This document shows positions 1,248 through 16,545 of a DNA stretch of 64,000 nucleotides, in pieces. The stretch's first letter is position 1; each line of letters starts with the position of its first letter. Source of the stretch: a virus (taxonomy: Duplodnaviria; Caudoviricetes). The notes beneath the pieces are model-generated. The model saw only the letters and a list, made by a program, of their open reading frames with translations. It was not told the DNA's origin and made no database searches. Made by a program: the position numbers and the translations under genes. The stretch covers positions 32,001 to 96,000 of IMG/VR virus record IMGVR_UViG_3300030330_005258; one strand, written 5' to 3'.

Positions 1248-1761
1248 ACCATCCTATGTTGACTTTGAGCCCAAAACCTATGCGTGGAAGGCTGACATTG
1301 ACTATCGCAAACACCCCGAATTGTATCGGATTGGTCGAGGGCAACAAGGCGTACTCACTTGCGAACCCTACAAGGGTGAGATATTGCCACATTGGCGGTT
1401 TAGGACGCCGGAAATAGCCCTACAATCAGCACAAAAAATTTATGCGATGTTCTTATCGTATGTAAAAATCGGTGACTTTGTGGGGGCTGATATGGCGAAA
1501 AAGTTCTTGCATATGGGCTACACTCGGTCTCGTAGGTATGCCAATCATGCTAGTGGGCGAAAGTGGGCGAAGGTAGAGCCTTCTTGTGGAGGTAGTGCGG
1601 AAGCAACATGGAAAGTTTTACCGCGAGAAAAAGATTCGCGAAATAACGACAAGGCGAAAAGTGCTGAAAATTTTTACGCGTTTTGGAAGTTAGCAAGAGA
1701 GAATGCCGACTATTTAAGGATGCGTAAGGAGCACAAGCAACTTTATGAGACTACTAATTGA
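1240..1761 (+). CDS. DUF4385-family protein
   Basis: YRIGRGQQGVL..PYK.EILPHWRF.TP...DFVGADMAKKFL.MG.TRSRRYANH recalled family signature. Confidence 0.75.
   Translation: MNKPSYVDFEPKTYAWKADIDYRKHPELYRIGRGQQGVLTCEPYKGEILPHWRFRTPEIALQSAQKIYAMFLSYVKIGDFVGADMAKKFLHMGYTRSRRYANHASGRKWAKVEPSCGGSAEATWKVLPREKDSRNNDKAKSAENFYAFWKLARENADYLRMRKEHKQLYETTN
1710..1716 (+). promoter_or_regulatory. candidate phage late promoter CTATTTA
   Basis: Recurrent CTANTTA motif; here upstream of the leader-gene run starting at 1745. Confidence 0.5.
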
Positions 1762-2257
1762 AAACTGGCGACGCTTCCTAAAAGAAGACAAAACATCTTG
1801 CCCGCCGCCAACGCAAGACCTTGACCTAAATACGAAAAACAGAGATAGATGCCGCGAAGAAGCAGATTATGGACCTATGAACCCATTAAAAGAAAGCATG
1901 GGATATTGGAAAATGGCTGCCGAAAAGTGGGCAGGTGCTACACCCGAGGAAGCTATGGGGCAACGATGTGGCAATTGTGTCGCATTCGATGTGTCACCAA
2001 GAATGAAAGAATGCCTTCCAATCTCGACCGAACAAGTCGATCCTATGAGTATGATCGATGAACAACTAAAAGACAAGATGCTAGATGATTTCCCTGGATT
2101 TCCAGAAGAAGGTGCTGCTCTAGGTTTTGGCTATTGCCATATGTGGAAGTTTAAGTGTCACAGTGCCAGAGCCTGCAATACGTGGGCTGGTGGTGGACCA
2201 ATAGACACCGATGCAAAATCAGTTGAGACACAAACAGGGAAAAAAGAAGAAAAATGA
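1745..2257 (+). CDS. leader-bearing Cys-rich protein (putative head-internal protein)
   Basis: Leader MRLLIENWRRFLKE; CGNC...C...GYC...KC...AC cluster. Confidence 0.7.
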   Translation: MRLLIENWRRFLKEDKTSCPPPTQDLDLNTKNRDRCREEADYGPMNPLKESMGYWKMAAEKWAGATPEEAMGQRCGNCVAFDVSPRMKECLPISTEQVDPMSMIDEQLKDKMLDDFPGFPEEGAALGFGYCHMWKFKCHSARACNTWAGGGPIDTDAKSVETQTGKKEEK

Positions 2258-2754
2258 AACTCTTAATGGAAAACTGGCAGGAGTATCTTGAAGAGGAAGA
2301 GATACTAATGGAAAAGTGTTGGCCCGGCTATGAAAAGAAGGGTATGAAGAAGATGTTTGGTAAAATGTATCCAAACTGCGTCAAAAAGAAAAAGAGCAAA
2401 AAGAAAAATGAAGAAGTAGAACTAAGCGAAGCAGACCCCAAGAAGGGCACGGGTAAGAAGCCAAAAGGTTCTGGTCGTCGTCTATATACAGATGAGGACC
2501 CAAGTGATACAGTTTCTGTTAAGTTCTCGACCGTTCAAGACATCAAGGACACACTATCCAAGGCTTCGTTCAAGTCAAAGTCTCACAAGCGCCAATCTCA
2601 GATAATCAACCTTATCCACCAGAGAGCACGAGCGGCATATCAAAACGCCAAAGATCCAGAGGTCAAGGCTAGACTTAAGAAATCTTTTGAGTATGCCAAG
2701 AAGCGAAAAGAGGCTTCTAAACGTAAAACTCAGCGAATGAATAAAAAGAAATGA
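2254..2754 (+). CDS. leader-bearing basic modular protein
   Basis: Leader MKLLMENWQEYLEE; module CWPGYEKKG...YPNCVK; module DPKKGTGKKPKGSGRRLYTDE. Confidence 0.7.
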   Translation: MKLLMENWQEYLEEEEILMEKCWPGYEKKGMKKMFGKMYPNCVKKKKSKKKNEEVELSEADPKKGTGKKPKGSGRRLYTDEDPSDTVSVKFSTVQDIKDTLSKASFKSKSHKRQSQIINLIHQRARAAYQNAKDPEVKARLKKSFEYAKKRKEASKRKTQRMNKKK

Positions 2755-3338
2755 AGTTAATACTTGAAAACTTTCGTCAATATCTTGACGCAGATGAGGA
2801 TACACTTACTGGGCTCTCGTTTCAAGAAATGTCCCAGGCACTTAACTCCTCTATGGGGAAAGCCAAGCTAGCCCTTACTGATTCTCCGCTCCAAGACAGG
2901 ACTTACGAACAGGGTAGCAGAATGAAACCCAATGGACTTTGGTATGCCAAAGGCAACTCTTGGATGGAATTTGTGAGAACAGAAATGGCCGATATAATAG
3001 AAGATGCCAAATATGTCTATGCTATTGGTTTTGATAAAAGCAAAGTTCTTAGTATAACCTCGGGTAGACAAGCAGAGCGTGTCACATATATGTTTAAGGA
3101 TCACGAACTTTCCCGTAAAGCGAATATAAGCATTGTTGATTGGGACAGAATAACAAAGATAGGCAAAGCTGGGGTTGAATTTATACCTTATGAGAGAGGA
3201 TACTTTTCCGCAGACTACTCTATGGTTTGGTATTCGGGAATTGATGTTCCGTCTGGATGTATCTGGGACACTAGCATACTTACTACTAAACAAGTTGTCG
3301 CTGAATTGAAAGAAGATGGCTGGGAAGTGTATAGATGA
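2751..3338 (+). CDS. leader-bearing protein, KPxGLW domain (possibly ART-like fold)
   Basis: Leader MKLILENFRQYL; KPNGLWY...W...DW...DVPSGCIWD. Confidence 0.6.
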   Translation: MKLILENFRQYLDADEDTLTGLSFQEMSQALNSSMGKAKLALTDSPLQDRTYEQGSRMKPNGLWYAKGNSWMEFVRTEMADIIEDAKYVYAIGFDKSKVLSITSGRQAERVTYMFKDHELSRKANISIVDWDRITKIGKAGVEFIPYERGYFSADYSMVWYSGIDVPSGCIWDTSILTTKQVVAELKEDGWEVYR

Positions 3339-3895
3339 AACTACTAATTGAAAATTGGCGCAAGTTCTTGACCGAAGAACAAGGCCAATACATTGGAACT
3401 ATTGACGATGTAGGCAGAGACCTTTATCGCATCTCCAAACGCTATGGAGACAAGGGCGACAACTACGAACGCTTCCAGAAGGGAACCAAGGTTATAAGGT
3501 CCCGTGATCGGTCCGCTGATGACAATGAGCCCTATCTAAATTCTGATGGTAACCCAGAGCATAGGATTTATTTTTTCGGCTCTGGCGATGACGCCAAGGC
3601 TGCTATGATGTCCGACACACAAGAGTTGGAAGCGATTGTTGGTGACTTCTCTGACGAAGACAAAGAAAAAGGCATCAACGAGAACCTGCTGTTAGTGCGT
3701 ATTCCTATGAATCAAGTTCCAAAAGAGGTTGAGTTCTTCACCGATTACGAGTTGGAAGGAACTCCCTACGATGCTATTTATGGTGCGTATCCGGATGGTC
3801 GTGCTTGGACTCTCGCACCCAAAGCAACAGACATTCAGTTAGCGACCGATCTACTTAATTACGAAGAGGATGATTACTACTATGAAGATTACTAA
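3335..3895 (+). CDS. leader-bearing protein, possible ADP-ribosyltransferase-like fold
   Basis: Leader MKLLIENWRKFLTEE; LYRIS...RIYFF...LLLVRIP...FTDYE strand pattern. Confidence 0.6.
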   Translation: MKLLIENWRKFLTEEQGQYIGTIDDVGRDLYRISKRYGDKGDNYERFQKGTKVIRSRDRSADDNEPYLNSDGNPEHRIYFFGSGDDAKAAMMSDTQELEAIVGDFSDEDKEKGINENLLLVRIPMNQVPKEVEFFTDYELEGTPYDAIYGAYPDGRAWTLAPKATDIQLATDLLNYEEDDYYYEDY

Positions 3896-4238
3896 AGCAA
3901 GACTAAAGCAGATTATTAAAGAAGAGCTTGAGAGTGTTGTTGAAGAGCAAACAAGTGGCAATTTGTCAAATATCTACAAGTTATGTCCTCCAAATACAGA
4001 GTGTAAACCGGATACCCAGAAAACAAATTGGTGGGGTTCTCGTGGTAATCTTAATGAAGAACTCACCCGTCAAGACAAGTCCGATGTAAAGAAGATGGTC
4101 AAGGACGAACTTGAAAAACTCCTCAAGAAGAAGGAGATGAAGGACCAGATCTCCGAACTCACAAAGAAAATTCTCAAGAAGCTTTACAAGGATCTTTCAT
4201 TAGAGCACCCCTATATCATTGACCGCATCAAAATTTGA
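3882..4238 (+). CDS. small helical protein with MKITKARLKQIIKEEL motif
   Basis: ATG 3882 after GAGGA; preceded by CTACTTA at 3851. Confidence 0.65.
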   Translation: MKITKARLKQIIKEELESVVEEQTSGNLSNIYKLCPPNTECKPDTQKTNWWGSRGNLNEELTRQDKSDVKKMVKDELEKLLKKKEMKDQISELTKKILKKLYKDLSLEHPYIIDRIKI

Positions 4239-4247
4239 TGTTATATT
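4219..4247 (+). promoter_or_regulatory. sigma70-type promoter (extended -10), probably leaderless
   Basis: TTGACC-N17-TATATT with TG; expected +1 falls at the GTG start 4254. Confidence 0.6.
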
Positions 4248-4253
4248 ATAGAT

Positions 4254-4457
4254 GTGAAGTCAATCAACGCCGACCCATTCGCTGCACAGTATCCTCAAGC
4301 CAGCATTGGGGACTGGGTTTATTATCCCAAAACCAAAATTTGTGGCCTAGTTATAGGGGTTGACAACCAAACTGGTTTTATGCAAGTTCATGATTTCAAA
4401 ACTATGAATTTGCGGTGGGTAACCATGAACAATTTTGGTCAATATAAGGTTTTATGA
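4254..4457 (+). CDS. small SH3/KOW-like protein
   Basis: SIGDWVY...GLVIGVD. Confidence 0.55.
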   Translation: MKSINADPFAAQYPQASIGDWVYYPKTKICGLVIGVDNQTGFMQVHDFKTMNLRWVTMNNFGQYKVL

Positions 4458-4648
4458 GTGAAGGTGATCTAGTTAGACTTAAAACACGATATCCGATTTG
4501 GCTGTATTCGTTTGGTCTCACCGATGGGGACCTAGGAATAGTTGCTAAAATTGGGGAAGAGGATACCTTGGTTTATTGGCTAAGAATCAGAAAGCAAGGT
4601 TCTGTAAAGAATAACCTATTAGAACTCGTCGAGTTGGAGACAAAATGA
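4454..4648 (+). CDS. small SH3/KOW-like protein
   Basis: EGDLVRL...GIVAKI...LVYWL; ATGA-coupled to neighbours. Confidence 0.6.
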   Translation: MSEGDLVRLKTRYPIWLYSFGLTDGDLGIVAKIGEEDTLVYWLRIRKQGSVKNNLLELVELETK

Positions 4649-4944
4649 AAGAAAAAATTATTGTAGCCCTTTTTATGATTGGGGCTATCGGCGCATCAAT
4701 CACCATGAACCAAAAGTTAAATCATATCGACAACGAAGTCGAAAGAGTAAAGGTAGAATCAATTGTTTCATCTGGTAAGGCGATCTACCTGCCCGGAAGC
4801 GTATGCGTCATTAAGGCTACTTCTGATATAGACAAGACAAAAATGCGCCAATTTGCGGCTGCTTGTATCAAGTCTCACGAAGACTGGCTGCTAATCAATA
4901 ACGGCAACGCTATTTATAGTGATGCCAAGCAAGAAGTACCATAG
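4645..4944 (+). CDS. membrane-anchored or exported hypothetical protein
   Basis: N-terminal hydrophobic segment; RBS GGAG. Confidence 0.55.
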   Translation: MKEKIIVALFMIGAIGASITMNQKLNHIDNEVERVKVESIVSSGKAIYLPGSVCVIKATSDIDKTKMRQFAAACIKSHEDWLLINNGNAIYSDAKQEVP

Positions 4945-5185
4945 CAGCGATTTAGGAATAGGATCATTAGTCCGAGATGTTCAGACTGGCGACCTAGGGC
5001 TACTTGTCGAAAGAGTTGACCTATTTGAAAATATAGAGGGTCACGAACCAATCTGGGTCTGGGCAATGACTTGGACTGGTCCTGCCACAGACTCACACAA
5101 TCGTCACATACCTTTTATCGAAGAGGCAATCATTGGGCTCCTAAATGGTGGTGTTTGGGAATTAAAGGACAATGAGACCGATTGA
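4922..5185 (+). CDS. small SH3/KOW-like protein
   Basis: GIGSLVRD..TGDLGLLVER...WVWAMTWT; CTATTTA at 4910 just upstream. Confidence 0.6.
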   Translation: MPSKKYHSSDLGIGSLVRDVQTGDLGLLVERVDLFENIEGHEPIWVWAMTWTGPATDSHNRHIPFIEEAIIGLLNGGVWELKDNETD

Positions 5186-5450
5186 GGAGTTGCGTGATGA
5201 AGCCTCACATGTTATATTACATGTGGGTGACATGATTTACGATGTCCGCACGAAGTCCCGAGGGTTCCTGAGACAAAGAGAAAGAAAGATTGATATTATC
5301 GAAGACGACATTTATGTGTGGAGTATTTTTTGGTTTTCCCAGGACGAAGAAAGTGAATATAACAATCTAGAATTTATGGAAGAAGAGGGACTAAGATTAT
5401 CAATCGTTATTGGAACAATAGAATTATTTAGCATCAAACAAGGAGGATAG
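5172..5450 (+). CDS. small SH3/KOW-like protein, paralog of the preceding gene
   Basis: HVGDMIYD..TKSRGFL...YVWSIFWF...EE. Confidence 0.6.
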   Translation: MRPIEELRDEASHVILHVGDMIYDVRTKSRGFLRQRERKIDIIEDDIYVWSIFWFSQDEESEYNNLEFMEEEGLRLSIVIGTIELFSIKQGG

Positions 5451-5900: not shown

Positions 5901-6097
5901 AGCACAAGATTGGAGATTTAGTTAGAATAAAAAAATGGCACCCCGATGGTCAAACTAAATGGGGCTTGGGCATCATAACTCAACGTCCAGAGAACAAACA
6001 AAAAAGTTTATTTATAAAAGTATACATTTTTAAACTTAAACGAGAGGAGTGGATTGCACCAGCGGAAATGGACATAATCTCTAACATAGACGAATAA
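5882..6097 (+). CDS. small SH3/KOW-like protein
   Basis: HKIGDLVRI...GLGIIT...IKVYIF. Confidence 0.55.
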   Translation: MYGAGVKHKIGDLVRIKKWHPDGQTKWGLGIITQRPENKQKSLFIKVYIFKLKREEWIAPAEMDIISNIDE

Positions 6098-6126
6098 CTC
6101 TCTATTTATTATAGAGGGTCATTGTA

Positions 6127-6294
6127 ATGAAGCAGACCAATAGTTTTGTCGATACCATGTCACTGACGTGTGTATTGATAAACGTTGGTCTGTTTTTATT
6201 TGCTTGGTATGATGAACAACCCGAATTGACGATGCTCGCACTATTTAATGTTACTTGCTTTTTAGTGTATTTTCTTATCTCGGGACGTAAATAA
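6127..6294 (+). CDS. 55-aa two-TM membrane protein (not in ORF track)
   Basis: MKQTNSFVDTMSLTCVLINVGLFLFAWYDEQPELTMLALFNVTCFLVYFLISGRK; GAGGG RBS; TAA overlaps the next ATG. Confidence 0.6.
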   Translation: MKQTNSFVDTMSLTCVLINVGLFLFAWYDEQPELTMLALFNVTCFLVYFLISGRK

Positions 6295-7478
6295 TGTATC
6301 AAAAATTTTGGAAGCAATTCCTCACAGAACAAAACGCAGACGCCACTTATCAATTTGTGCCGGATTCAGGACAAACGGTTGCTGATGTGCCTTCGCCACC
6401 TGCGTTGCCCACCATGGCGCCGGACGAACCAACAAGACGTGAGCCACGAGAGTCAACGGGCTTTAAAGCTTTTCTTAAATCAAAGGGTCTACAATACCGC
6501 GAGCACCTTGGCTCTGGGCAAGATGGTTTCGTAGTCAGGGCTTTTAACGTAGAGACAGGGCAGATGCTTGCTATTAAGTTTGTCAATGCTGCCAGAACAA
6601 GCATGGAGACAGCTAGAAGAGAAGTTAGAAATTATGAATTTGTAAAAAGAAATAGAGAGTCTCTTGGTGAAGATGCCAAATATCTGCCAGTTGTATATGA
6701 TGCAGAAATGGCTGGTGTCCCGGCTATGGGTGAAACCATGGATGGTAGACTGGTCGTTCATGGTGTTATCTACATGGAAGAGCTTGAGCCACTACCAGCA
6801 CAAGTTGCTAAAAACCTGTTTGCAGTGGGTGGAACAACGCCAGTAACAATGGCAGCAAAAGAAAAAAGAGACAGGAGGCTGTTTAAAAATCCCAAACTTG
6901 TTTCTTCGCTCTTGAATGTAGCCTGGAGTTTGACTGATCCTTCGACCACAAGTGGTTTTATGAGTATGGAAGCGCAATTTGCAGCAGAAAAAAGAATTAT
7001 TAGAGATTTTTTTAAGGATGAATATGACCCTGAACAGATAGAGCAAGACCCATACGTGCAATATTCTAGATTTGGAAAGCAGGCTAAAGCTCTTGCAAGT
7101 TTGTATATTAAAATCACTTATGAAGAAATGTTAAAAAATCCTGAAGATGAAACTGACCTGCCAATTGTTAGAGACTATGAATCTACAATCAAAGAGGACC
7201 TGTTGGATTCGTTTACCAAGGCTTACATAAAACCATTAGTAACTGGTGCGGCAGGAAGACAACTACGACACGCATCCGGTTTGCGCGGCTTTGACGACTT
7301 CTATGGTATGGAGAAAGATTTTGAAGAAGCCTTTCCAGAAACAGCCGGTGTTCGCGCAGCTATGAAAAAGTTTGCAGGACGCGACTTCAAGCCCTTTGAC
7401 GTTCACGCTAACAACGTAATGATGCGACCCAAAACAAATGATATTGTTATTGTTGATCTTGGAAGGTTCAATATCTAG
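6294..7478 (+). CDS. leader-bearing Ser/Thr protein kinase-like protein
   Basis: Leader MYQKFWKQFLTE; LGSGQDGFV, AIK, YMEEL, DVHANNVM, DLG. Confidence 0.8.
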   Translation: MYQKFWKQFLTEQNADATYQFVPDSGQTVADVPSPPALPTMAPDEPTRREPRESTGFKAFLKSKGLQYREHLGSGQDGFVVRAFNVETGQMLAIKFVNAARTSMETARREVRNYEFVKRNRESLGEDAKYLPVVYDAEMAGVPAMGETMDGRLVVHGVIYMEELEPLPAQVAKNLFAVGGTTPVTMAAKEKRDRRLFKNPKLVSSLLNVAWSLTDPSTTSGFMSMEAQFAAEKRIIRDFFKDEYDPEQIEQDPYVQYSRFGKQAKALASLYIKITYEEMLKNPEDETDLPIVRDYESTIKEDLLDSFTKAYIKPLVTGAAGRQLRHASGLRGFDDFYGMEKDFEEAFPETAGVRAAMKKFAGRDFKPFDVHANNVMMRPKTNDIVIVDLGRFNI

Positions 7479-7486: not shown

Positions 7487-7822
7487 ATGTATGAATACAA
7501 CGCGATATGCACAAGAGTTGTTGATGGTGATACAATAGATGCCAGAATAGACCTTGGGTTTAGTATATGGTTGGATTGCAGGATACGATTGGAAGGCATA
7601 GACGCTCCTGAGACCCGTACAAAAAACTTGGACGAGAAGATACAAGGGTTTAGAACTAAAGAGTTTTTAAAGACAATTGTAGATGGGGCTGGTGGTCATT
7701 TTGTTTTGAAGTCTCATGGTGTAGGCAAGTATGGAAGATGCATAGGAACTATTTACGTTGGCGGCGAGAATATAAATGAAAGACTACTCGCGGAAGGTTA
7801 CGCCAAGAGGTATGAAAAATGA
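7487..7822 (+). CDS. thermonuclease (SNase-like)
   Basis: RVVDGDTID...IRLEGIDAPE...GKYGR...NERLLAEGYA. Confidence 0.9.
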   Translation: MYEYNAICTRVVDGDTIDARIDLGFSIWLDCRIRLEGIDAPETRTKNLDEKIQGFRTKEFLKTIVDGAGGHFVLKSHGVGKYGRCIGTIYVGGENINERLLAEGYAKRYEK

Positions 7823-8073
7823 TTTTATTATTTGTTCTCGCGATGAGCGCGATGGCAGAGGAACCCGAAGATAGGTCGGAAAAACTATACAAAAGCTTTT
7901 GTGTTAATTGTCACGGAGAGAGCGTGGAAAAGGTGCCCCTAAACCCCGACAGCACCACAGAACAGAGGGTCAATACAATAAACTATGGTGTGTCAAGTAT
8001 GCCACCATACAATTGGATGCTACAAGAAGGCGAAGCAGAAAAACTAGTTAAGTATATGGAAGGTATTAAATGA
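7819..8073 (+). CDS. class I c-type cytochrome
   Basis: Signal peptide (AMA-EE), CVNCH heme motif, distal MPPY Met ligand. Confidence 0.85.
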   Translation: MILLFVLAMSAMAEEPEDRSEKLYKSFCVNCHGESVEKVPLNPDSTTEQRVNTINYGVSSMPPYNWMLQEGEAEKLVKYMEGIK

Positions 8074-10133
8074 AATTTCAGGCAAGATGGCGTAGATTCC
8101 TTACCGAAGGCGGAAATGTCTTCAAGGGTGAGCGCGTTGGCGCAATCCCTTTGGAGTTTATCGAGCCTACGCTTGAGCGATATTATGAAGAGCTTGGTCG
8201 TCTATTCCCACAACAGACAGCGTTCTTCCAAACTATTGAGCCGCTTGGGTCAGTTGGCAAAAAAGCAAAGTCCGGCGATATCGATTTAGCTATTGATGTG
8301 TCGGAGCTTGCCCCAAGTCGCAAGATTGATGACCAAATGCTACAAAGTTGGGAGTTAGACCCACAGGTGTGGGCGGATACACGCGCAAGATTCGCAAAAC
8401 GTGCAAGAAACGCCACAGACGAAGAGCTTGACCTACGTGCGTTCTTATATGAGTTAGCCAAGTACATCGGAGAGAACTCACAACTAATCAAGACAGACTT
8501 AAAAAAGGTTACTTCTGGTGGTATGTTTTCACTCTTTCCTCAGATCTCGGACTCTGGAGAGCAACAAGAGATTGGAATCCAAGTTGATTGGATGCTTGGC
8601 AATAAAGACTGGCTAAGGTTTGCTTACTTCTCGGACGTTCCGTCCGAAGACCAAGAAATGCTGAAGGGTTTACACAGAACTCAGTTGATTGTTGCTCTTC
8701 TCGGAGTGAAGGACTACTCGTTCCAGCACGCGAAGGGTGTATACCGGAAGGGCACCAAGGAAAAGGTTGTTACAAGCCCCCAGGAAACCCTAGAGCTTAT
8801 CGAAAAATTATATGGGACTCCTATATCGATTGAAGAATTACGTAACTTCAGCAGCCTATACGGCTGGATTGAAGCTAATTTGTCTGACGAGGACAAAGTA
8901 GAAGTTTATCGCTACTATCTGAAGATACTTGATAGTACAAGAGGTAACAAAGACCCCGCAACTGGTGAGTCATGTGGGCATATTCCAACAGAGTTGGAAG
9001 ATTTCTGGCGTCAGAACCAAGATACTATACCTCTCAGTGGCAAATTCTTGTGTAAAGACCAGAAAGCAAGGCTTATGGGCGATGAGATGCTTGAAGAAGC
9101 AGCAACACCACGCATCGCAAACCTTGGAAACGACGACATCATCGCACTAATCGACTTGATTCTGAGTGAAGAGTCGGTGTTGGAGGTGTCAGAGAAGATT
9201 GCAGGACAAAACCTGTCTGTAAAGGTTGAAAACGGTCAGGTGTATACAAAGTACAAGAACCAGCCAGAGTATAGAGAGGCGTATGAGCCGTTCAAGTCCA
9301 TCTTTGCAGCGCATGATGGCGATGGAGAATACGTTTTTGAGATGATTTCTCCAGACAACCGACCAGATTACGTCAATTATTTGACCGACAGCACCATTTT
9401 TGTGGACTTTTCTGGGCGGCTTACCGATGAAATGGCAAAGAAACTGTCAAATGAGTCGAATACCTTCATGACCAAGAAACAAATACGTCGCAATCAGTTC
9501 GATGTGACCCCAGAGCAGCGTCAAGAGTTGGTTGGTTTGCGGTCGAGAGCAGAACAAAGACTAAGAAAGCGAGACAAACAGGAGATTGCAGACCGTATCA
9601 AGGCAATCATCCTTTCTCCAAACGTGCAGAGTGTCCTTGGCGGGGGTGTTGAGGGTCTATATGTTACCGGTGGGTCAAAAAACTTTAAGATTCCAAGCCC
9701 AACTTACCAGAATTTGCAAAAACTACAGGTTGGTATCTATGCTGTGCTCTCCGGCAGAACAAGAATACCCAAAAAAGAAGTGCGCCAACGTGTGATTGAT
9801 GGCGACCAAAACGATAAAATAGTACAGGACTTGCGTAGATTCCTGTCATTTGCTCAAAATGATATACCAGCGGGCTACAGAATGTTTGTCAGCCCTGAAG
9901 AAGCCATGAATCTGTTGTCAAAAATGGATACTCCCGAGGGTAGAAAGCAAGTATACGTGTTTCTCAACAAAAGAATCAAGAAAAAGGGCGATTGGTACAC
10001 TCCAGAGCAACTTGAAGAAGCCAAGAAATGGTCGAGAAAGTACAAAAGCAGCATAAACTGCTCTAACCCAAAAGGTTTTAGCCAGAAACAGTATTGTAAA
10101 AGACAAAGCCGAGGCGGGAAGTATAAATCTTGA
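8070..10133 (+). CDS. leader-bearing polyprotein: Pol-beta nucleotidyltransferase + RNA-ligase-like domain + Cys mini-module
   Basis: Leader MKFQARWRRFLTE; LGSVGKK..SGDIDL and QVD; EKIAG, FEMI, IFVDF, EGLYV, FKI; KWSRKYKSSINCSNPKGFSQKQYC. Confidence 0.7.
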   Translation: MKFQARWRRFLTEGGNVFKGERVGAIPLEFIEPTLERYYEELGRLFPQQTAFFQTIEPLGSVGKKAKSGDIDLAIDVSELAPSRKIDDQMLQSWELDPQVWADTRARFAKRARNATDEELDLRAFLYELAKYIGENSQLIKTDLKKVTSGGMFSLFPQISDSGEQQEIGIQVDWMLGNKDWLRFAYFSDVPSEDQEMLKGLHRTQLIVALLGVKDYSFQHAKGVYRKGTKEKVVTSPQETLELIEKLYGTPISIEELRNFSSLYGWIEANLSDEDKVEVYRYYLKILDSTRGNKDPATGESCGHIPTELEDFWRQNQDTIPLSGKFLCKDQKARLMGDEMLEEAATPRIANLGNDDIIALIDLILSEESVLEVSEKIAGQNLSVKVENGQVYTKYKNQPEYREAYEPFKSIFAAHDGDGEYVFEMISPDNRPDYVNYLTDSTIFVDFSGRLTDEMAKKLSNESNTFMTKKQIRRNQFDVTPEQRQELVGLRSRAEQRLRKRDKQEIADRIKAIILSPNVQSVLGGGVEGLYVTGGSKNFKIPSPTYQNLQKLQVGIYAVLSGRTRIPKKEVRQRVIDGDQNDKIVQDLRRFLSFAQNDIPAGYRMFVSPEEAMNLLSKMDTPEGRKQVYVFLNKRIKKKGDWYTPEQLEEAKKWSRKYKSSINCSNPKGFSQKQYCKRQSRGGKYKS

Positions 10134-10495: not shown

Positions 10496-10512
10496 AACAT
10501 TATGGAGTTACA

Positions 10513-11050: not shown

Positions 11051-11051
11051 A

Positions 11052-11204: not shown

Positions 11205-11238
11205 AAAGTCGCTTTTTTACCCTATTTATCGATGAAAA

Positions 11239-11514: not shown

Positions 11515-11833
11515 CCATATTGGCATAAGAGTAGACGATCTGAAAGAGGCTGAAACATGGTATTTGAAGCGTTTGAAGGCAGAAGTGACCTTTAGGAGCG
11601 ATAAATACATTCGTTTGAAGGTGGCAAACACCAATATTGCCCTAATTGATAAGTTATACTACCCATATCCGCATGTGGCAATCCTCGTAGACAATCAAGA
11701 TGAGCTTCCACAGTTCGGACTGCGAATCAAACATCGTGATGGTACCATAGGCGTATATGTCGAAGACCCGTTTGGGAACTATTTAGAATATATTTGGTAT
11801 TCTCAAGACCAAGGTGAGACATTCCTAAAATGA
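11501..11833 (+). CDS. VOC/glyoxalase family protein
   Basis: IDHIGIRVDDL..AETWY...HVAI...YVEDPFGNYLE. Confidence 0.85.
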   Translation: MDIIDHIGIRVDDLKEAETWYLKRLKAEVTFRSDKYIRLKVANTNIALIDKLYYPYPHVAILVDNQDELPQFGLRIKHRDGTIGVYVEDPFGNYLEYIWYSQDQGETFLK

Positions 11834-12876
11834 AAAGCACACTACAGCCATTAGTAGACCAGTTTATGCCCTACGCACAGAAACGCATGGGTTTTAACAA
11901 GCTGCCTCGTATCTTTTTGCGTGATGACCCGCACAATGCACAAAACCCTCTTGGCAAAACTGCTTACTATGACCCAGCACAAATGTCAGTGACTCTATAC
12001 GTCACTGGGCGTCATCCAAAAGACGTTATGCGGTCTTTATCTCATGAGTTGATTCACCACACGCAGAATTGTAATGGACAGTTTGATGGTGCTTCTGAAA
12101 TGGGTGAGGGGTATGCACAGAACGATGAACATTTGCGTGAAATGGAACGACAAGCCTATGAACAAGGTAATTTAGTATTTAGGGATTGGGAAGATAGCAT
12201 AAAGGGCACTATTTATAATGAATCTTTGCAGAAAGGAGCAAAAAAGAAAATGTCATTGAAAGATTGGAAAAACAACGAGCTAAGAACCGTACTATCAGAG
12301 AGATGGGGGTTTTCTTTTAATCTCCTTAGTGAATCTCAAGAGGAAGAGCCTGTCGATGAAGCTAAGATCCCCGTAACAAAGAAAACTGACTCACCAGATT
12401 TTCATATTCGTCGCGAACTAAAAATGAATCCCGATGCCACTCGTCAAGAACTAGTCGATGCAGTGATGGAAAATATCCCAATGTCTAGAGAAAAATCTGA
12501 GGCAGCAGTTGACAAGCATTTATCCGGTGAAAAAGACATTGAAGAAGGCGCAGCATCCAGTGGTCGTGTAGTCACACCAGATCGTGGTGGTGAAGACCGC
12601 AGAGCTAATGACGAGCGCAAGCGTCCAATGGAGGAAGCAGAAAAGCCCGATTTTCCCGATGTGGACGGCGACGGCGACAGAGAAGAGCCCATTTCTAAGG
12701 CTTCCAAGGAAAAGAAAGATGATAAGGGTGGCGACAAGGAAGAGAAGTCCGACAAGGATGTTTCCAAAGTACCCCCACAGCTTCGCAAGCACGTCAAAGG
12801 CAAGATGGATGAACAAAAGATTCGTCGTATTATCCGCAAGCTAGTCAAAGAAGCAATGGCAAAGAAGGCCAAGTGA
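11830..12876 (+). CDS. zincin-like metallopeptidase fused to acidic modular tail
   Basis: RSLSHELIHH...ME..AY; tail with DVDGDGD motif and (V/I/M)xE sites. Confidence 0.7.
   Translation: MKSTLQPLVDQFMPYAQKRMGFNKLPRIFLRDDPHNAQNPLGKTAYYDPAQMSVTLYVTGRHPKDVMRSLSHELIHHTQNCNGQFDGASEMGEGYAQNDEHLREMERQAYEQGNLVFRDWEDSIKGTIYNESLQKGAKKKMSLKDWKNNELRTVLSERWGFSFNLLSESQEEEPVDEAKIPVTKKTDSPDFHIRRELKMNPDATRQELVDAVMENIPMSREKSEAAVDKHLSGEKDIEEGAASSGRVVTPDRGGEDRRANDERKRPMEEAEKPDFPDVDGDGDREEPISKASKEKKDDKGGDKEEKSDKDVSKVPPQLRKHVKGKMDEQKIRRIIRKLVKEAMAKKAK
12250..12876 (+). CDS. nested in-frame product (C-terminal part of 11830..12876)
   Basis: Own CTATTTA (12209), AAAGGAG RBS (12232) and in-frame ATG 12250 (MSLKDWKNNEL...). 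Confidence 0.5.
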   Translation: MSLKDWKNNELRTVLSERWGFSFNLLSESQEEEPVDEAKIPVTKKTDSPDFHIRRELKMNPDATRQELVDAVMENIPMSREKSEAAVDKHLSGEKDIEEGAASSGRVVTPDRGGEDRRANDERKRPMEEAEKPDFPDVDGDGDREEPISKASKEKKDDKGGDKEEKSDKDVSKVPPQLRKHVKGKMDEQKIRRIIRKLVKEAMAKKAK

Positions 12877-12878
12877 AG

Positions 12879-13118
12879 ATGTCAAAATGGCATGACTTTC
12901 TAGATGGTGTCGAGAGAAAACAAGACCTTAACAGCCTACTTGAACAGCTTGGCACTGATTTGAAGCTTATTAAGCCGCATACTTTAAATGAGGAGGTCAG
13001 ACTATCAACCATAGATGGGTTACTAATAGAAATTCGCCTCAAAGCAAGAAGACTAGAACAAGAAAATAAAGTGTTACTTAACAAGATTGCAATTCTTGAG
13101 GAAGACTTAGACCTATAG
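12879..13118 (+). CDS. small coiled-coil protein
   Basis: MSKWHDFL start resembles a shortened leader; C-terminal heptads. Confidence 0.55.
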   Translation: MSKWHDFLDGVERKQDLNSLLEQLGTDLKLIKPHTLNEEVRLSTIDGLLIEIRLKARRLEQENKVLLNKIAILEEDLDL

Positions 13119-13127
13119 GAGACTTTT

Positions 13128-13919
13128 ATGTCTGATCTCTATAACAGCATAGAAGAACTCATGCTTGAGTTGGAAGATGAAGATGGCGACCCCGTTGGAG
13201 GTCGCACTCTTGCTATTGTGCCTGGGGCATTCAAGCCTCCACATCTTGGGCACCTATCGATGGTCAAGCAGTATGCTTCTGAGGCAGATGAAGTAGTTGT
13301 TCTTATTTCTTCTCCTCTCAAAGCAAGCAGGGGTGTTGGCGGCAAGCCCATCACTGCACAGCAATCCAAGCAGATTTGGGAAATGCTACTCGCAGACCAA
13401 GGGTTATCCAATGTTCGTGTTGAGATTTCACCCAAACCATCGCCTATCACGGCGACATACGAGTATATTGGTGATGATGGTCCCTTAGAGCCCGGTATAA
13501 GACTTATTCTTGGCGCTAGCCAGAAGGGTGGTGATTTCAAGCGCTGGAAGGCGGCTACTAAATACGTCAAAGACGGAGTTGAGCTTCTACCACCAGAAGA
13601 AACTGCTGTAGTGCCAGCAAATAGACCCTCTGGAGAGCCATATAGCGCCACAGACGCCCGTAAAATGTTAGAACAGGGTGATGCTGCCGACGAGTTTTTT
13701 GGAGACGGTATGGGTGTCAGGGTGCGGACTATACTGGGTCTTGATGCATCGTTGGAAGAGATGTCAGCCATGGGTGGTGGCGCTGTGGCAGGATATGCCA
13801 TGCCGCTTGGTGCGAAGAAAAGAAAGAAGATTAAAAAGATCAAACATACACCGTATAATGAGATAGAATTATACAAAGAAGTTTTGAAACTACTTAAGAA
13901 AGAAGGTATCATCAAATGA
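13128..13919 (+). CDS. HxGH cytidylyl/adenylyltransferase-like (NMNAT/PPAT superfamily)
   Basis: VPGAFKPPHLGH...YSATDARK; tail LEE-MSAMGGGAVAGY. Confidence 0.8.
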   Translation: MSDLYNSIEELMLELEDEDGDPVGGRTLAIVPGAFKPPHLGHLSMVKQYASEADEVVVLISSPLKASRGVGGKPITAQQSKQIWEMLLADQGLSNVRVEISPKPSPITATYEYIGDDGPLEPGIRLILGASQKGGDFKRWKAATKYVKDGVELLPPEETAVVPANRPSGEPYSATDARKMLEQGDAADEFFGDGMGVRVRTILGLDASLEEMSAMGGGAVAGYAMPLGAKKRKKIKKIKHTPYNEIELYKEVLKLLKKEGIIK

Positions 13920-14692
13920 AAACTCCAGAAGATTTGCTTAGAGAGAATGTAAGAGCTTTGATCTCTCTTGTCAAGAAGAAAAACAAAAATACTCAAACCG
14001 AGGAACAGCAACTAAGAGCTATAATTCGTGAGTTCTTGCAGTATGAGCTTAAAGAAGCCAAAACTCCCGACGCAGCCGATCCAGCGCCACATCAATCTAC
14101 TGGTATTAATGTACTTGAGGATCTGCTCAAGAAGATTATTCCTCAAATAGAAGACGATTACAAGCTTCTTACAACTTCTGAAGAACAGCGTGAGTCATAC
14201 CGATCACACATTATCGATGCTGTGGTAAAGACTCTTACTCCCGTTGAGCTAAACAACGACGCAGCAGGCGACGGACCGCAAGGTGAACTTGACGAGGATA
14301 TTGATATTGAAATCTCCGACGATGATGAAGAAGATGATATGTTTATTGATATCAATCCCGAAGAGCCCAAAGAAGAAGAGGAAGAAGAAGATCCAAGGGA
14401 CGCTTTCGGTATCGAAGGTAAGGATACCACGGGTCGGAACATGGCGTATACAACTTTCAAGAAAATAGAATCACAAATCATCGATGCATACGATATGCTC
14501 TCTAATGCTGAAGATCAGGAATTGTTCTTTGACTATCTGATCGCAAACTTAAAACTGTACTTTGACAAGTTTGAAGCTGAAATACAACCAAGCGTTGAAG
14601 AGCCAACTAACCAAGAATATGATTCTGCAAAAGAAGAAGAGCCTGCTGGCGGGGGTGATGAAGGCGGGGATACCTTGGATCTGGAAATTTAA
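13916..14692 (+). CDS. acidic hypothetical protein (putative head/scaffold-associated)
   Basis: LRAIIREFL helix, LKE and LDE sites, D/E-rich linker; CTACTTA at 13890. Confidence 0.6.
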   Translation: MKTPEDLLRENVRALISLVKKKNKNTQTEEQQLRAIIREFLQYELKEAKTPDAADPAPHQSTGINVLEDLLKKIIPQIEDDYKLLTTSEEQRESYRSHIIDAVVKTLTPVELNNDAAGDGPQGELDEDIDIEISDDDEEDDMFIDINPEEPKEEEEEEDPRDAFGIEGKDTTGRNMAYTTFKKIESQIIDAYDMLSNAEDQELFFDYLIANLKLYFDKFEAEIQPSVEEPTNQEYDSAKEEEPAGGGDEGGDTLDLEI

Positions 14693-14693
14693 T

Positions 14694-14722
14694 TTGACAC
14701 TTTGTGCTTGGCCTGTTATGAT
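14694..14722 (+). promoter_or_regulatory. sigma70-type promoter, probably leaderless
   Basis: TTGACA-N17-TATGAT with TG; expected +1 coincides with ATG 14729, which has no RBS. Confidence 0.65.
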
Positions 14723-14728
14723 CTTTAT

Positions 14729-15076
14729 ATGAAGAAGAGAAGATCAAAGTATAAACATAAGAGTATAATTAATAATTTATTAAATAATAATATTATAAAT
14801 GAAAGCAATCTGACTTTTATAGATTCTATGTCTCTGGAAGATTTAATTGCTGTAAAATTAGAACTCTCAGCAAGATATATTAATAACAAACTTTATGCTT
14901 TCAACCTGTTGTCAAATACAAACAAACTAGTTAAAGAAGCAATAATCAAATTTGCTATCAGTGCTACTGACTCTAAGATGGATGCTGCCAGATTTCTTGG
15001 TATAGATTATGAAGGCTTACACCGACTAGTTAGAGAGTATAACCTTCAGGAATACTTTGATGAAATTAATAATTGA
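14729..15076 (+). CDS. Fis-type HTH DNA-binding protein
   Basis: C-terminal VKEAIIKFAI...SKMDAARFLGIDYEGLHRLVREYNL. Confidence 0.7.
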   Translation: MKKRRSKYKHKSIINNLLNNNIINESNLTFIDSMSLEDLIAVKLELSARYINNKLYAFNLLSNTNKLVKEAIIKFAISATDSKMDAARFLGIDYEGLHRLVREYNLQEYFDEINN

Positions 15077-15839
15077 AAGCTGGCGGCAATATATTACTGA
15101 GCAATCTGTAGATATTACAGACCATAATTTTAAAATAATGTTAGATCTTTATCAGGGAGCTACGGGAAGAAAACTTAGTGATAGCCAACATAATAAATAT
15201 AGATTTTTTTGGCGTCAATTTACTGTAAATGAAAGAGATATCTTGATTTATATATCTGCGGCTGCCACAATGGTTCCTCAACTGCTGCAAAACAAAATCA
15301 AACGCCTTTTGGGTGCAGGCTCCCAAGGTATTGTTTTTGAGCTTGATAATGGAAGAGCACTAAAATTATATAAGGGCGCTTATCGCGAAACTCAAGATGA
15401 TTTCTATGGTGCTGAATCTGGAAAGATCTTTTCTGGTGGTGGTAAAATCACAACTCTCCCAATCTTTGATAAAGGTGAAACCGAATACGGATTAAAATAT
15501 GTTGAAATGGCAAAAGTTTTGCCTTTTGATCTTTTCTTGAAAAGAACTGGACGAAAAGAGCTTGACGATAATATCTGGTATGCCCTTCAGCAAATCGCCG
15601 AAATGTCTTTAAAAGACAAAAACTCTGAAGCATATGCCGAAAGAGTCGATGAATTTAAAGAAAATGGCAGCTACCAAAATCTTACAGAACCTGAAATGGA
15701 TTCAATGATAGAAATGGTAAATTATGCTGTTTTTAACTATGGCGAAGATTACACTGATGATTTATATGACGAAAATTTCGGTGTTTTAGAACAAACAATG
15801 TCATCAAAAAAACCAATATTTGTGTTGTTTGATCCATGA
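15060..15839 (+). CDS. leader-bearing protein kinase-like protein
   Basis: Leader MKLIIESWRQYITE; LGAGSQGIVF, ALKLY, DLYDENFG, LFDP. Confidence 0.7.
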   Translation: MKLIIESWRQYITEQSVDITDHNFKIMLDLYQGATGRKLSDSQHNKYRFFWRQFTVNERDILIYISAAATMVPQLLQNKIKRLLGAGSQGIVFELDNGRALKLYKGAYRETQDDFYGAESGKIFSGGGKITTLPIFDKGETEYGLKYVEMAKVLPFDLFLKRTGRKELDDNIWYALQQIAEMSLKDKNSEAYAERVDEFKENGSYQNLTEPEMDSMIEMVNYAVFNYGEDYTDDLYDENFGVLEQTMSSKKPIFVLFDP

Positions 15840-15852
15840 TGGAGAATTTAAA

Positions 15853-16545
15853 ATGAAATTAATAATTGAAAACTTTAGAAAGTTCTTGGCAGAACAAAAT
15901 TTTATTTCTGATATTCCACTAGAACAAGATGAAGAAGGGAACATAATTCTTTATCATGTCTCCGGTGCTGAAGATATTGAAGAATTAGATCCTGACGTTG
16001 CTGCAAAGAATCTCAAGAATTATACTACTGCCGAATATAGAACCTGGGACAGACCCAGAGTTTTCTTTTTTACTCGTCTCGGACAAGAAGACACAGGAAT
16101 TGGACAGATACAGGGTATCCCTTATCGCGTTAGGTTGAAGCCAAACCAATTGTATCCAATTATGGAAGACCCAGCAGGGCTGTCTTCAAAACAAGAGCAA
16201 CAGAATTGGATGGAAGAGAACGTTCCAGAGTTTGCTGAAAGAGCACAAGAGGCAGAAAAGTGTTCTAATTCTGAGCGTTATGGACAATACCACATTTGTT
16301 CTAAGACACCTGATTCGGACGGATTATACTTTACGGACGAACGTTTTGCAGGTAAAAAGTTTCTTGTAGATAATCCCAAATTTCATCATCTCAAACCAAA
16401 TACATACGAAATGGTTGCACAACTTGCAGAAGAGCGTTATAATAGTATAGGGTTTATTTACCCACAAAGTGGCGAAAAAGATAACCAGATTGTTGTTTTG
16501 TGGCGTAAAGTTCCAGCAGAAAAACTAGATAAAGACTTTTATTAG
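15853..16545 (+). CDS. leader-bearing protein, ART-like fold
   Basis: Leader MKLIIENFRKFLAE; ILYHVS...LDP...RVFFF...YRVRL...GFIY. Confidence 0.6.
   Translation: MKLIIENFRKFLAEQNFISDIPLEQDEEGNIILYHVSGAEDIEELDPDVAAKNLKNYTTAEYRTWDRPRVFFFTRLGQEDTGIGQIQGIPYRVRLKPNQLYPIMEDPAGLSSKQEQQNWMEENVPEFAERAQEAEKCSNSERYGQYHICSKTPDSDGLYFTDERFAGKKFLVDNPKFHHLKPNTYEMVAQLAEERYNSIGFIYPQSGEKDNQIVVLWRKVPAEKLDKDFY

What the first reader, a model, noticed from the sequence alone, without database searches (positions are those of the whole stretch)
1745..16545. Shared N-terminal address tag on at least 8 unrelated proteins: candidate virion-packaged effector arsenal
Seen: MRLLIENWRRFLKE (1745), MKLLMENWQEYLEE (2254), MKLILENFRQYL (2751), MKLLIENWRKFLTE (3335), MYQKFWKQFLTE (6294), MKFQARWRRFLTE (8070), MKLIIESWRQYITE (15060), MKLIIENFRKFLAE (15853), and a weaker MSKWHDFL (12879). 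After the tag the proteins share nothing: two kinases, an NTase/ligase, ART-like domains, Cys modules. Each of the eight full-tag genes lies directly or by operon coupling behind the CTANTTA motif that also precedes baseplate genes. Known: T4 internal proteins use a ~10-aa capsid-targeting sequence (MKTYQEFIAE) removed by prohead protease gp21 after (I/L)xE, and are injected with the DNA. Inference: this is a portable packaging/delivery tag that loads diverse host-modifying or anti-defence enzymes into the head so they act before phage genes are expressed.
Basis: partly seen in the sequence, partly recalled or inferred. Interest (0 to 1): 0.88.

Follow-up and report, generated by a model that had tools for sequence, protein, structure and literature searches.

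The report
Shared head-loading leader on phage enzymes
An uncultured ocean relative of phage T4 starts at least nine unrelated proteins, several of them enzymes, with the same 14-residue peptide. The peptide looks like a longer version of T4's "pack me into the capsid and cut me off" signal, so these proteins are probably loaded into the virus head, though no particle has been examined.

Summary
Observation confirmed. Eight + strand genes in window 1745-16545 start with MKLLIENWRKFLxE or a shortened form. The core motif occurs nowhere else in the six-frame translation of the 154.6-kb genome. One diverged ninth copy lies between the portal and prohead-protease genes. The bodies share no detectable similarity, and codon usage shows selection on the peptide.

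Best reading (about 0.6): a prohead-targeting leader like T4's capsid targeting sequence, removed by the phage's T4-type gp21 protease.
- It is exactly 14 residues and ends in (L/I)xE.
- Its aromatic-x-x-F-(L/I)-x-E spacing matches the four mapped residues of the T4 signal.
- It is virus-only. All seven near-complete carrier genomes encode the protease.
- In 37 of 70 relatives picked only by protease homology, such a gene lies between portal and protease.
- One orthologous cargo carries this leader, a short form or the genome's other leader (MKITK type), always joined at [LIV]xE|GGNVF. A cultured phage has it leaderless, starting MGGNVF.

Packaging, cleavage and injection are untested, and no isolate carries the leader. 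The promoter claim holds for six of eight genes.

This scan had already flagged this stretch, and the MKITK leader in this genome, with the same reading. Verdict: new variant of a known kind.

The parts
1745..2257 (+). Leader gene 1: MRLLIENWRRFLKE plus a 156-aa acidic body with 8 Cys. First gene of a translationally coupled set of four (ATGA overlaps).
   Evidence: Body homologues are annotated HiPIP in GenBank phages. In Actinomycetia phage DSL-LC01 the homologue lies between the portal/giant ORF and the capsid maturation protease genes. No Pfam hit.
2254..2754 (+). Leader gene 2: MKLLMENWQEYLEE plus a very basic (pI 10.1, 45 K+R) 152-aa body with a CWPGY...PNC motif. Its charge resembles T4's basic internal proteins.
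2751..3338 (+). Leader gene 3: MKLILENFRQYLDA, the only copy without Glu at position 14, plus a 181-aa body of unknown fold.
3335..3895 (+). Leader gene 4: canonical MKLLIENWRKFLTE plus a 172-aa acidic body.
   Evidence: A homologue with the leader sits on a 15.9-kb contig binned in an Opitutia MAG.
3882..4238 (+). Neighbouring gene with the genome's second leader type (MKITKARLKQIIKEELE), directly after the four W-type genes.
6294..7478 (+). Leader gene 5: short form MYQKFWKQFLTE plus a 382-aa protein-kinase-like body.
   Evidence: Pfam Pkinase E 2.8e-4, below the cut-off, and PHROG kinase E 2.9e-5. At least 35 of 109 homologues carry precomputed PF00069. The leader is kept down to 32% identity, and the most distant homologues carry MKLLLENWRRF.
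8070..10133 (+). Leader gene 6: short form MKFQARWRRFLTE plus a 674-aa body with an N-terminal Pol-beta-like nucleotidyltransferase domain. Translationally coupled to 7487 and 7819.
   Evidence: AF2 model with leader helix 2-12 and low-confidence linker 14-24. The Foldseek top 50 are all family-X polymerases, prob 0.84-1.00, E 0.014-0.08. Orthologues carry full, short or K-type leaders, and 114 of 115 have [LIV]xE directly before GGN[VI]F. A leaderless homologue starting MGGNVF occurs in Flavobacterium phage immuto.
15060..15839 (+). Leader gene 7: MKLIIESWRQYITE plus a 245-aa body with a Gly-rich-loop/Lys motif. A kinase-like fold is possible but unconfirmed.
   Evidence: Searches gave no significant family hit. 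The motif was read directly from the sequence.
15853..16545 (+). Leader gene 8: MKLIIENFRKFLAE plus a variable linker and a 200-aa ADP-ribosyltransferase-like domain.
   Evidence: 37 of 38 aligned orthologues (35-94% identity) keep the leader; one row is N-terminally truncated. The linker varies in length. AF2 pLDDT 86.5; leader helix 2-13 has pLDDT below 50 and is detached. VIA-wide top rows are almost all ART-superfamily, best Z 7.0. ESM Atlas gives an ART-PolyVal lead.
1710..1716 (+). Candidate late-promoter motif CTATTTA, 29 nt upstream of the four-gene leader operon.
   Evidence: The same (A)CTATTTA precedes the gp22-like scaffold gene and the tail and baseplate genes.
6241..6247 (+). CTATTTA motif upstream of the 6294 kinase-like gene.
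7749..7755 (+). CTATTTA motif inside the 3' end of ORF 7487, upstream of the coupled 7819/8070 genes.
14694..14722 (+). Sigma-70-like promoter (TTGACA, 17 nt, TATGAT, TG extension; 11 of 12) upstream of the 15060 and 15853 leader genes.

Best explanation
The 14-residue N-terminal peptide M-K-L-L-I-E-N-W-R-K-F-L-x-E is a prohead-targeting leader of the T4 capsid-targeting-sequence kind. As an amphipathic helix it would dock the nascent protein onto the scaffolding core while the prohead assembles. The phage's T4-type gp21 (S77) protease would then cut after Glu14, at the (L/I)-x-E motif. The mature protein would stay inside the head with the DNA and probably enter the host on infection. Cargo in this genome includes a kinase-like protein, a Pol-beta-like nucleotidyltransferase, an ART-fold protein, a very basic DNA-binder-like protein and a Cys-rich protein. 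Shown here: the leader itself, its sharp 14-residue boundary, its restriction to T4-like viral genomes that encode gp21, its presence in the portal-to-protease gene block, and its modular exchange on orthologous cargo. Inferred: docking to the core, cleavage, retention in the head, injection, and any host-takeover or anti-defence role.
For: 1) The genome encodes an S77 prohead protease (E 1.8e-30). It is 30% identical to T4 gp21 and keeps the His and Ser motifs. It also encodes a gp23 capsid protein.
2) T4 gp21 cuts after L/I-x-E. The T4 CTS is the 10 residues MKTYQEFIAE, with residues 4 and 7 needed for targeting and 8 and 10 for processing (PMC9026906; PMC8442874). The leader has W8, F/Y11, L/I12 and E14 at the same spacing.
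3) A DNA pattern covering only residues 1-9 found 92 IMG/VR stretches, with about 0.2 expected by my own estimate. At the residues not searched for, 72 of 75 distinct N-termini have an aromatic residue or His at 11, 69 have L/I/V/M at 12 and 64 have E at 14. Conservation collapses at position 15.
4) All 7 carrier records that are at least 81% complete (183-203 kb) hold the S77 protease. Every other carrier is a fragment of a genome of that size.
5) In 596 Gb of prokaryote genomes the pattern hits an internal G6PD motif. Only one true N-terminal leader was found, on a short contig that is probably viral.
6) Among 70 distinct portal-to-gp21 intervals from relatives retrieved only by gp21 homology, 37 hold a W-leader ORF and 48 hold a W- or K-type leader ORF. 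This is the place of T4's prohead-core genes 67 and 68. The own genome has one at 129573.
7) T4 gp21 itself starts MNEPQLLIETW, T4 gp23 is cut at FLTE|AEIGG, and this clade's gp21 starts MKLLREYYELCEGGVCQDLLTE.
8) Orthologues of the 8070 enzyme carry the full leader, the short leader or the K-type leader. 114 of 115 have [LIV]xE right before GGN[VI]F. The homologue in phage immuto starts MGGNVF.
9) AF2 places the leader as a separate low-confidence helix followed by a linker, in two cargo proteins.
10) Six of the eight genes lie behind the (A)CTATTTA motif that also precedes head and tail genes.
11) A profile of the leader finds 677 representatives of 50%-identity clusters at E <= 0.001. 143 of the best 150 matches start at residue 1-3.
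Against: There are no virion data, and no cultured phage carries the leader, so packaging, cleavage and injection are all untested. The leader profile finds nothing in T4, cyanophage S-SCSM1, RM378, Mel-JY01, a 484-kb uncultured phage or Flavobacterium phage immuto. Homology with the T4 CTS therefore cannot be shown, and the resemblance rests on short motifs. (L/I)xE is a low-information motif, and the cargo proteins contain a few further such sites (3-8 in each whole protein, the leader's own included). The copy at 2751 lacks Glu14. The genes at 15060 and 15853 lack an exact late motif and sit behind a sigma-70-like promoter, although T4 IP genes are also read early (own knowledge). 22 of 70 relatives have no leader ORF between portal and protease. 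The NTase cargo has a leaderless homologue among replication and nucleotide-metabolism genes in phage immuto, so the cargo need not be an 'effector'.
Confidence: 0.6

Rival explanations
1. The leader does target proteins to the prohead core, but the tagged proteins act only during assembly, as core or scaffold accessories or maturation factors. They are degraded or expelled like T4 gp22, gp67 and gp68, and are not delivered to the next host.
For: The most conserved location of the leader is the portal-to-protease block, where T4 keeps its core genes. The cargo proteins contain a few further (L/I)xE sites (3-8 per whole protein, the leader's own included).
Against: Cargo with kinase-like, ART-like and Pol-beta-like enzyme folds has no obvious scaffold role. 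T4's packaged Alt is likewise an ART enzyme (annotation). A well-folded body with a detached leader fits a single cut at the leader.
Confidence: 0.15
2. The peptide is a docking or oligomerisation helix for some other hub inside the infected cell, such as a replication or transcription factory, the phage's tubulin-like protein or a membrane site. It would have nothing to do with the capsid.
For: It is a short amphipathic helix. Some proteins carry a second internal or C-terminal copy. The NTase cargo has a leaderless homologue among replication genes. Two of the genes sit behind a sigma-70-like promoter.
Against: This does not explain the invariant [LIV]xE boundary, the match to the spacing of the T4 CTS residues, the enrichment between portal and protease, or the leader-like N-terminus of gp21 itself.
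Confidence: 0.12
3. The shared sequence is mainly a DNA-level recombination junction that lets cassettes be shuffled. A similar idea was proposed for T-even internal-protein loci (own knowledge).
For: Leader types are exchanged on an orthologous cargo at a fixed junction. The genes are clustered and joined by ATGA overlaps.
Against: 48% of identical-residue codon pairs differ synonymously, so DNA identity is low. Conservation is at the residue level across orthologues down to about 30% identity. Shuffling is more likely a consequence of the shared leader than its function.
Confidence: 0.03

Closest known systems
[quoted passage not shown]
   Same: A short N-terminal peptide shared by otherwise unrelated proteins. 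It starts M-K and ends (L/I)-x-E. Aromatic residues sit at -6 and -3 from the Glu, matching the mapped targeting residues 4 and 7 and processing residues 8 and 10 of the T4 CTS. The genome encodes a gp21-type S77 protease. One cargo protein is small and very basic.
   Different: 14 rather than 10 residues, with an extra LLIE(N)W half that resembles the N-terminus of T4 gp21. There is no detectable sequence homology to T4 IP genes. It sits on at least 9 genes per genome and at least 677 cluster representatives, including enzymes up to 687 aa. A second leader (MKITK type) with the same hydrophobic register coexists with it and can replace it. Nothing has been tested experimentally.
T4 Alt, an ADP-ribosyltransferase packaged in the head and injected with the DNA, with gp21-cleaved propeptides at both termini
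   Same: An enzyme cargo with an ART fold (here the 15853 protein) behind a putative gp21-cleaved propeptide. Some metagenomic relatives carry the leader at both ends (P0083, P0087).
   Different: No sequence homology to Alt was tested or shown. The ART fold assignment has middling scores (best Z 7.0). The catalytic residues were not assessed.
Propeptide-bearing ejection and inner-body proteins of phiKZ-like giant phages (phiKZ, 201phi2-1, SPN3US)
   Same: Many head-internal proteins are processed after Glu by a diverged gp21-type protease, and large sets of proteins are packaged with the DNA (PMC9026906).
   Different: Their cleavage motif is S/A-x-E, their propeptides are long and varied rather than one short shared leader, and the phage lineage is different.
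MKITKxxLKxIIKEE leader of the same genome
   Same: Same genome, same clade and same proposed function. Hydrophobic residues sit at positions 3, 8, 11 and 12, with Glu at 14. It is found next to gp21 and interleaved with W-type genes, and it replaces the W-type leader on NTase orthologues.
   Different: The residues differ: Lys/Ile-rich, with no Trp.

Membership tests
T4-type capsid targeting sequence / gp21-processed internal head proteins | A short N-terminal peptide shared by proteins that are otherwise unrelated | tested here: met
   Eight genes in the window plus one in the head module. The bodies give no BLASTP hit with E below 0.3.
T4-type capsid targeting sequence / gp21-processed internal head proteins | The peptide ends in the gp21 cleavage motif (L/I)-x-E | tested here: met
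   7 of 8 window copies. 62 of 75 IMG/VR N-termini, at positions that were not part of the search pattern. 114 of 115 NTase orthologues at the junction. The motif definition comes from PMC9026906.
T4-type capsid targeting sequence / gp21-processed internal head proteins | The genome encodes a T4-type (S77) prohead protease | tested here: met
   PF03420 E 1.8e-30. 30% identity to T4 gp21. 7 of 7 near-complete carrier genomes have it.
T4-type capsid targeting sequence / gp21-processed internal head proteins | Targeting residues: aromatic or hydrophobic at T4 CTS positions 4 and 7 | tested here: met
   W/F at position 8 and F/Y at 11 in all 8 copies, at the same spacing from the terminal Glu as Y4 and F7 of MKTYQEFIAE. 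This is a comparison by sequence only.
T4-type capsid targeting sequence / gp21-processed internal head proteins | Detectable sequence homology to the T4 CTS or IP genes | tested here: not met
   The leader profile A1 gives 6-10 hits in genomes of this clade but none in T4 or five other T4-like or large phages.
T4-type capsid targeting sequence / gp21-processed internal head proteins | The protein is present in the mature head with the leader removed, and is injected | not testable with these tools
   The clade is uncultured: no megablast hit to any GenBank phage and no proteomics.
Protein kinase domain (PF00069), for the 6294 protein | Score above the Pfam gathering cut-off | tested here: inconclusive
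   The protein itself scores 20.8 bits against a cut-off of 31.7. PHROG kinase E 2.9e-5. At least 35 of 109 homologues carry a precomputed PF00069 hit.
ADP-ribosyltransferase superfamily, for the 15853 protein | ART fold | tested here: inconclusive
   Foldseek best E 0.16. VIA-wide top rows are almost all ART members but the best Z is 7.0, within the tool's 'middling' range. The catalytic motif was not assessed.
Pol-beta-like nucleotidyltransferase fold, for the 8070 protein | Palm domain fold with the G-S ... D-x-D signature | tested here: met
   The Foldseek top 50 are all family-X polymerases, prob 0.84-1.00, though E is 0.014-0.08. GSVGKK...GDIDLAID was read from the sequence. The DUF6267 lead from the ESM Atlas was not confirmed (the control did not ring).

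The most novel reading that the evidence does not exclude
An abundant, uncultured lineage of ocean T4-like phages may use a small 'address code' to load many enzyme families into the capsid. The code would be two interchangeable 14-residue leaders with one hydrophobic register (positions 3, 8, 11, 12, with Glu14), both ending in the prohead-protease site. Cargo would include kinase-like, ART-like and Pol-beta-like proteins, several hundred cluster representatives at the least. That would be a virion-delivered enzymatic arsenal much larger and more modular than T4's three internal proteins plus Alt, with leader swapping as the means of recruiting new cargo.
Probability: 0.4. Interest if true: 0.8.

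Novelty: new variant of a known kind. Interest (0 to 1): 0.62.

Why it matters
If the leader works as proposed, it can be read directly from sequence to tell which proteins an uncultured marine phage carries inside its head and delivers first. That would turn hundreds of 'hypothetical' metagenomic families into candidate first-strike host-takeover or counter-defence proteins. It would show that T4's capsid-targeting principle is old and expandable: two leader types, larger enzyme cargo and leader swapping. It would also offer a second, longer packaging tag for engineering protein delivery by phage capsids. Because the leader ends at a predicted cleavage site, mass spectrometry of viral fractions can test the claim without a cultured host.

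Tried and rejected
1) Chance or annotation artefact: rejected by the genome-wide scans.
2) Recent DNA duplication or gene conversion: rejected by the synonymous codon differences.
3) A cellular motif: the genome-contig scan gave 36 hits, but nearly all are an internal glucose-6-phosphate dehydrogenase motif (ETFVAMKLFIENWRW...), not N-terminal leaders.
4) Looking for a cultured carrier led nowhere. Megablast of the region and of two relatives found nothing. tblastn with the 22-residue leader found nothing. The per-genome profile found nothing in six isolates or reference phages.
5) A literature search for the leader string returned nothing relevant, and no paper in the library describes a marine CTS-like leader.
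6) Pfam DUF6267 for 8070, an ESM Atlas lead, was not confirmed.
7) The second 'kinase' at 15060 had no support from Pfam, PHROGs or PDB sequence searches.
8) MSKWHDFL at 12879 is not a member by the position matrix.
9) My first two regex counts of head-module leaders were too strict, because they required a nearby stop codon. One search is the corrected count.
10) One search was a mistyped, empty query.

Full report
THE OBSERVATION. The window is bases 32001-96000 of a 154,577-bp IMG/VR viral contig that CheckV rates 64% complete. The core [WF][RKQH]x[FY][LI]x[ED] occurs seven times in the six-frame translation of the whole genome, always at these ORF starts. The eighth copy (2751...YLDA) differs only at the last position. 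A position matrix separates the six full-length copies (30-38 bits) from everything else. The best remaining hit (13.2 bits) is a diverged copy at an ORF start at genome 129573, MKVIMENWDRFILQEE, and noise ends at 12.7. With the leader removed, no two bodies resemble each other (best BLASTP E 0.32). 69 of 145 identical-residue codon pairs use different codons, so selection acts on the peptide. Genes 1745, 2254, 2751 and 3335 overlap by ATGA, as do 7487, 7819 and 8070. MSKWHDFL at 12879 is not supported.

WHAT KIND OF PHAGE. The genome encodes a T4-type prohead protease (PF03420, E 1.8e-30). It is 30% identical to T4 gp21 and keeps the GELxHP and SSRG motifs. The genome also encodes a gp23 capsid protein. 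The closest capsid proteins are only 34-40% identical: an uncultured 484-kb phage, Microcystis phage Mel-JY01 and Rhodothermus phage RM378. Nothing in GenBank phages matches at the DNA level. This is an uncultured, deep-branching T4-like lineage.

THE LEADER IS WIDESPREAD, VIRUS-ONLY AND EXACTLY 14 RESIDUES LONG.
- A degenerate DNA pattern covering only residues 1-9 found 92 stretches in IMG/VR, against roughly 0.2 expected by my own estimate from the pattern's degeneracy. All are at ORF starts and are followed by diverse bodies.
- At the positions that were not searched for, 72 of 75 distinct N-termini have an aromatic residue or His at 11, 69 have L/I/V/M at 12 and 64 have Glu at 14. At position 15 the commonest residue drops to 18 of 75.
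- Every carrier contig is either a near-complete genome of 183-203 kb or a CheckV fragment of one. All seven records that are at least 81% complete have the S77 protease.
- In 596 Gb of prokaryote genomes the same pattern hits an internal motif of glucose-6-phosphate dehydrogenase. Only one real N-terminal leader turned up, on a 15.9-kb contig binned in a MAG, and its body is homologous to the 3335 gene.
- A profile of the leader finds 677 representatives of 50%-identity clusters at E <= 0.001 among 1.84 billion. 143 of the best 150 matches start at residue 1-3.
- Per genome, the profile finds 6, 10 and 6 copies in this genome and two complete relatives, always clustered. It finds none in T4, S-SCSM1, RM378, Mel-JY01, LR756508 or Flavobacterium phage immuto. 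The leader is specific to this clade.

LINK TO THE HEAD.
- T4 keeps its prohead-core genes 67 and 68 between portal gene 20 and protease gene 21. In this genome the diverged ninth copy lies in exactly that interval.
- About 17 of the 92 pattern hits in relatives also fell in that interval.
- To remove ascertainment bias I retrieved relatives by gp21 homology alone. Of 70 distinct portal-to-gp21 intervals, 37 hold a W-type leader ORF (typically MSxEMKVIMERWDRF...), 24 hold a K-type (MKITK...) ORF, 48 hold either and 22 hold neither.
- The clade's gp21 begins MKLLREYYELCEGGVCQDLLTE.
- T4 gp21 begins MNEPQLLIETW. T4 gp67 begins MEGLIEAI. T4 gp23 is cut at ...FLTE|AEIGG.
- The review PMC9026906 notes the LIE-9 site of T4 gp21 and suggests that its propeptide may target it to the core like a CTS.

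COMPARISON WITH THE T4 SIGNAL.
- The T4 CTS is MKTYQEFIAE (PMC8442874).
- Residues 4 and 7 matter for targeting and residues 8 and 10 for processing. Asp at position 10 blocks processing but not targeting. gp21 cuts after L/I-x-E (PMC9026906).
- The leader's W8, F/Y11, L/I12 and E14 reproduce that spacing. The short forms on 6294 and 8070 are nearly the T4 length.
- The leader also holds a second L/I-x-E at residues 4-6.
- This resemblance rests on short motifs. Common ancestry cannot be shown.

MODULARITY.
- Among 38 aligned orthologues of the 15853 protein (35-94% identity), 37 keep the leader (one row is N-terminally truncated), while the linker after it varies from 0 to about 20 residues.
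- The kinase-like family keeps MYQKFW[NK]QFLxE down to 32% identity, and its most distant members carry MKLLLENWRRF.
- The most telling case is the 8070 enzyme. Its orthologues carry the full leader (MKLLIENWRRFLTE), the short one, or a K-type leader (MKFTIAEIRRIIAE, MIKVRIKKTLRE). In 114 of 115 the three residues before GGN[VI]F are [LIV]xE.
- The cultured Flavobacterium phage immuto also has an S77 protease. It encodes the same domain without any leader, starting MGGNVF, among primase, exonuclease and NMNAT genes. The predicted cut therefore coincides with a natural protein start.
- The W-type and K-type leaders share one register: hydrophobic residues at 3, 8, 11 and 12, with Glu at 14.
- Some metagenomic proteins carry a second internal or C-terminal copy. 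This recalls T4 Alt, which is processed at both ends.

STRUCTURE AND CARGO.
- AF2 with an orthologue alignment gives a confident body for 15853 (pLDDT 86.5). The leader forms a detached helix (residues 2-13, pLDDT below 50) followed by a coil.
- Foldseek finds nothing significant for that model, but its weak rows and nearly all VIA-wide rows are ADP-ribosyltransferase-superfamily proteins, best Z 7.0.
- The 8070 model has leader helix 2-12, a low-confidence linker, and an N-domain whose top 50 Foldseek hits are all family-X polymerases (prob 0.84-1.00, E 0.014-0.08).
- 6294 is kinase-like. For 15060 the kinase call rests only on motifs.
- 2254 is very basic (pI 10.1).
- The 1745 body has homologues labelled HiPIP. 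In Actinomycetia phage DSL-LC01 the homologue lies between the portal/giant ORF and the capsid maturation protease genes.

EXPRESSION SIGNALS. (A)CTATTTA occurs 42 times on the + strand and 5 on the - strand, with 13.7 expected per strand; with the leading A the counts are 27 and 1. It precedes the gp22-like gene and the tail and baseplate genes. In the finding's region it sits before the 1745 operon, before 6294 and before 7819/8070, and also before several untagged genes. The genes at 15060 and 15853 have no exact copy and follow a strong sigma-70-like site at 14694-14722.

VERDICT. The capsid-loading reading is the best-supported one (confidence 0.6), but packaging, cleavage and injection are inferred. 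The main rivals are an assembly-only role in the core (0.15) and a docking helix for another intracellular hub (0.12). Relative to the known T4 CTS, this is a new variant of a known kind. This scan had already noted this same stretch (e1-5760971) and the K-type leader of this genome (e1-5761003), with the same reading. New here are the unbiased head-module synteny, the leader swapping at a fixed [LIV]xE junction, the leaderless natural orthologue, the shared register of the two leaders, and the resemblance to the T4 gp21 N-terminus.

Noticed in passing
window 7819-8073: An 84-aa ORF with a signal-peptide-like start (MILLFVLAMSAMA) and a CxxCH haem-binding motif (CVNCHG). It looks like a small cytochrome c and is translationally coupled between an SNase-like nuclease gene (7487-7822) and the leader-bearing NTase gene.
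   Followed up: no
window 11830-12876 and 13128-13919: Two untagged enzyme-like genes lie inside the leader-gene region. One has an HExxH motif (SHELIHH) and a long K/E/D-rich tail. The other has a PPHLGH (HxGH) nucleotidyltransferase-like motif. Pfam gave only a weak DUF6647 hit for the first.
   Followed up: partly
whole genome; e.g. window 1710, 6241, 10134, 11222, 11779: (A)CTATTTA is strongly strand-biased: 42 on + and 5 on - for CTATTTA, 27 and 1 with the leading A. It sits 20-70 nt upstream of the gp22-like, tail-fibre and baseplate genes. It is a candidate late promoter that differs from T4's TATAAATA.
   Followed up: partly
window 10010-10133 (C-terminus of the 8070 protein) and 2320-2390: Short Cys-bracketed basic motifs recur on unrelated proteins (KYKSSINCSNPKGFSQKQYC and CWPGYEKKGMKK...PNC). 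The first matches gp122 of Synechococcus phage Bellamy at 58% over 42 residues.
   Followed up: no
proteins P0083, P0085, P0087, P0091, P0105, P0162: Metagenomic proteins carry the leader at the N-terminus and again internally or at the very C-terminus, not preceded by Met. They may be polyprotein-like fusions whose internal leaders act as cleavage or docking modules.
   Followed up: partly
genome 131080-131145 (outside the window) and loci L011, L024, L065, L087, L095: The prohead protease of the whole clade starts with a leader-like MKLLREYYELCEGGVCQDLLTE that contains a conserved CxGGxC pair. This part lies outside the Pfam S77 match.
   Followed up: partly
Genome-contig loci L100-L135: The peptide MK(L/F)(L/F/M)IENWRW is a conserved internal motif of bacterial glucose-6-phosphate dehydrogenases. 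It resembles the first nine residues of the leader by coincidence and will contaminate naive motif searches.
   Followed up: yes
genome 130148-130495 and its homologues in relatives: A small conserved ORF (about 113 aa) with a hydrophobic N-terminus and a CPMCMGF motif sits between the two leader genes of the head module in nearly all relatives. Its function is unknown.
   Followed up: no
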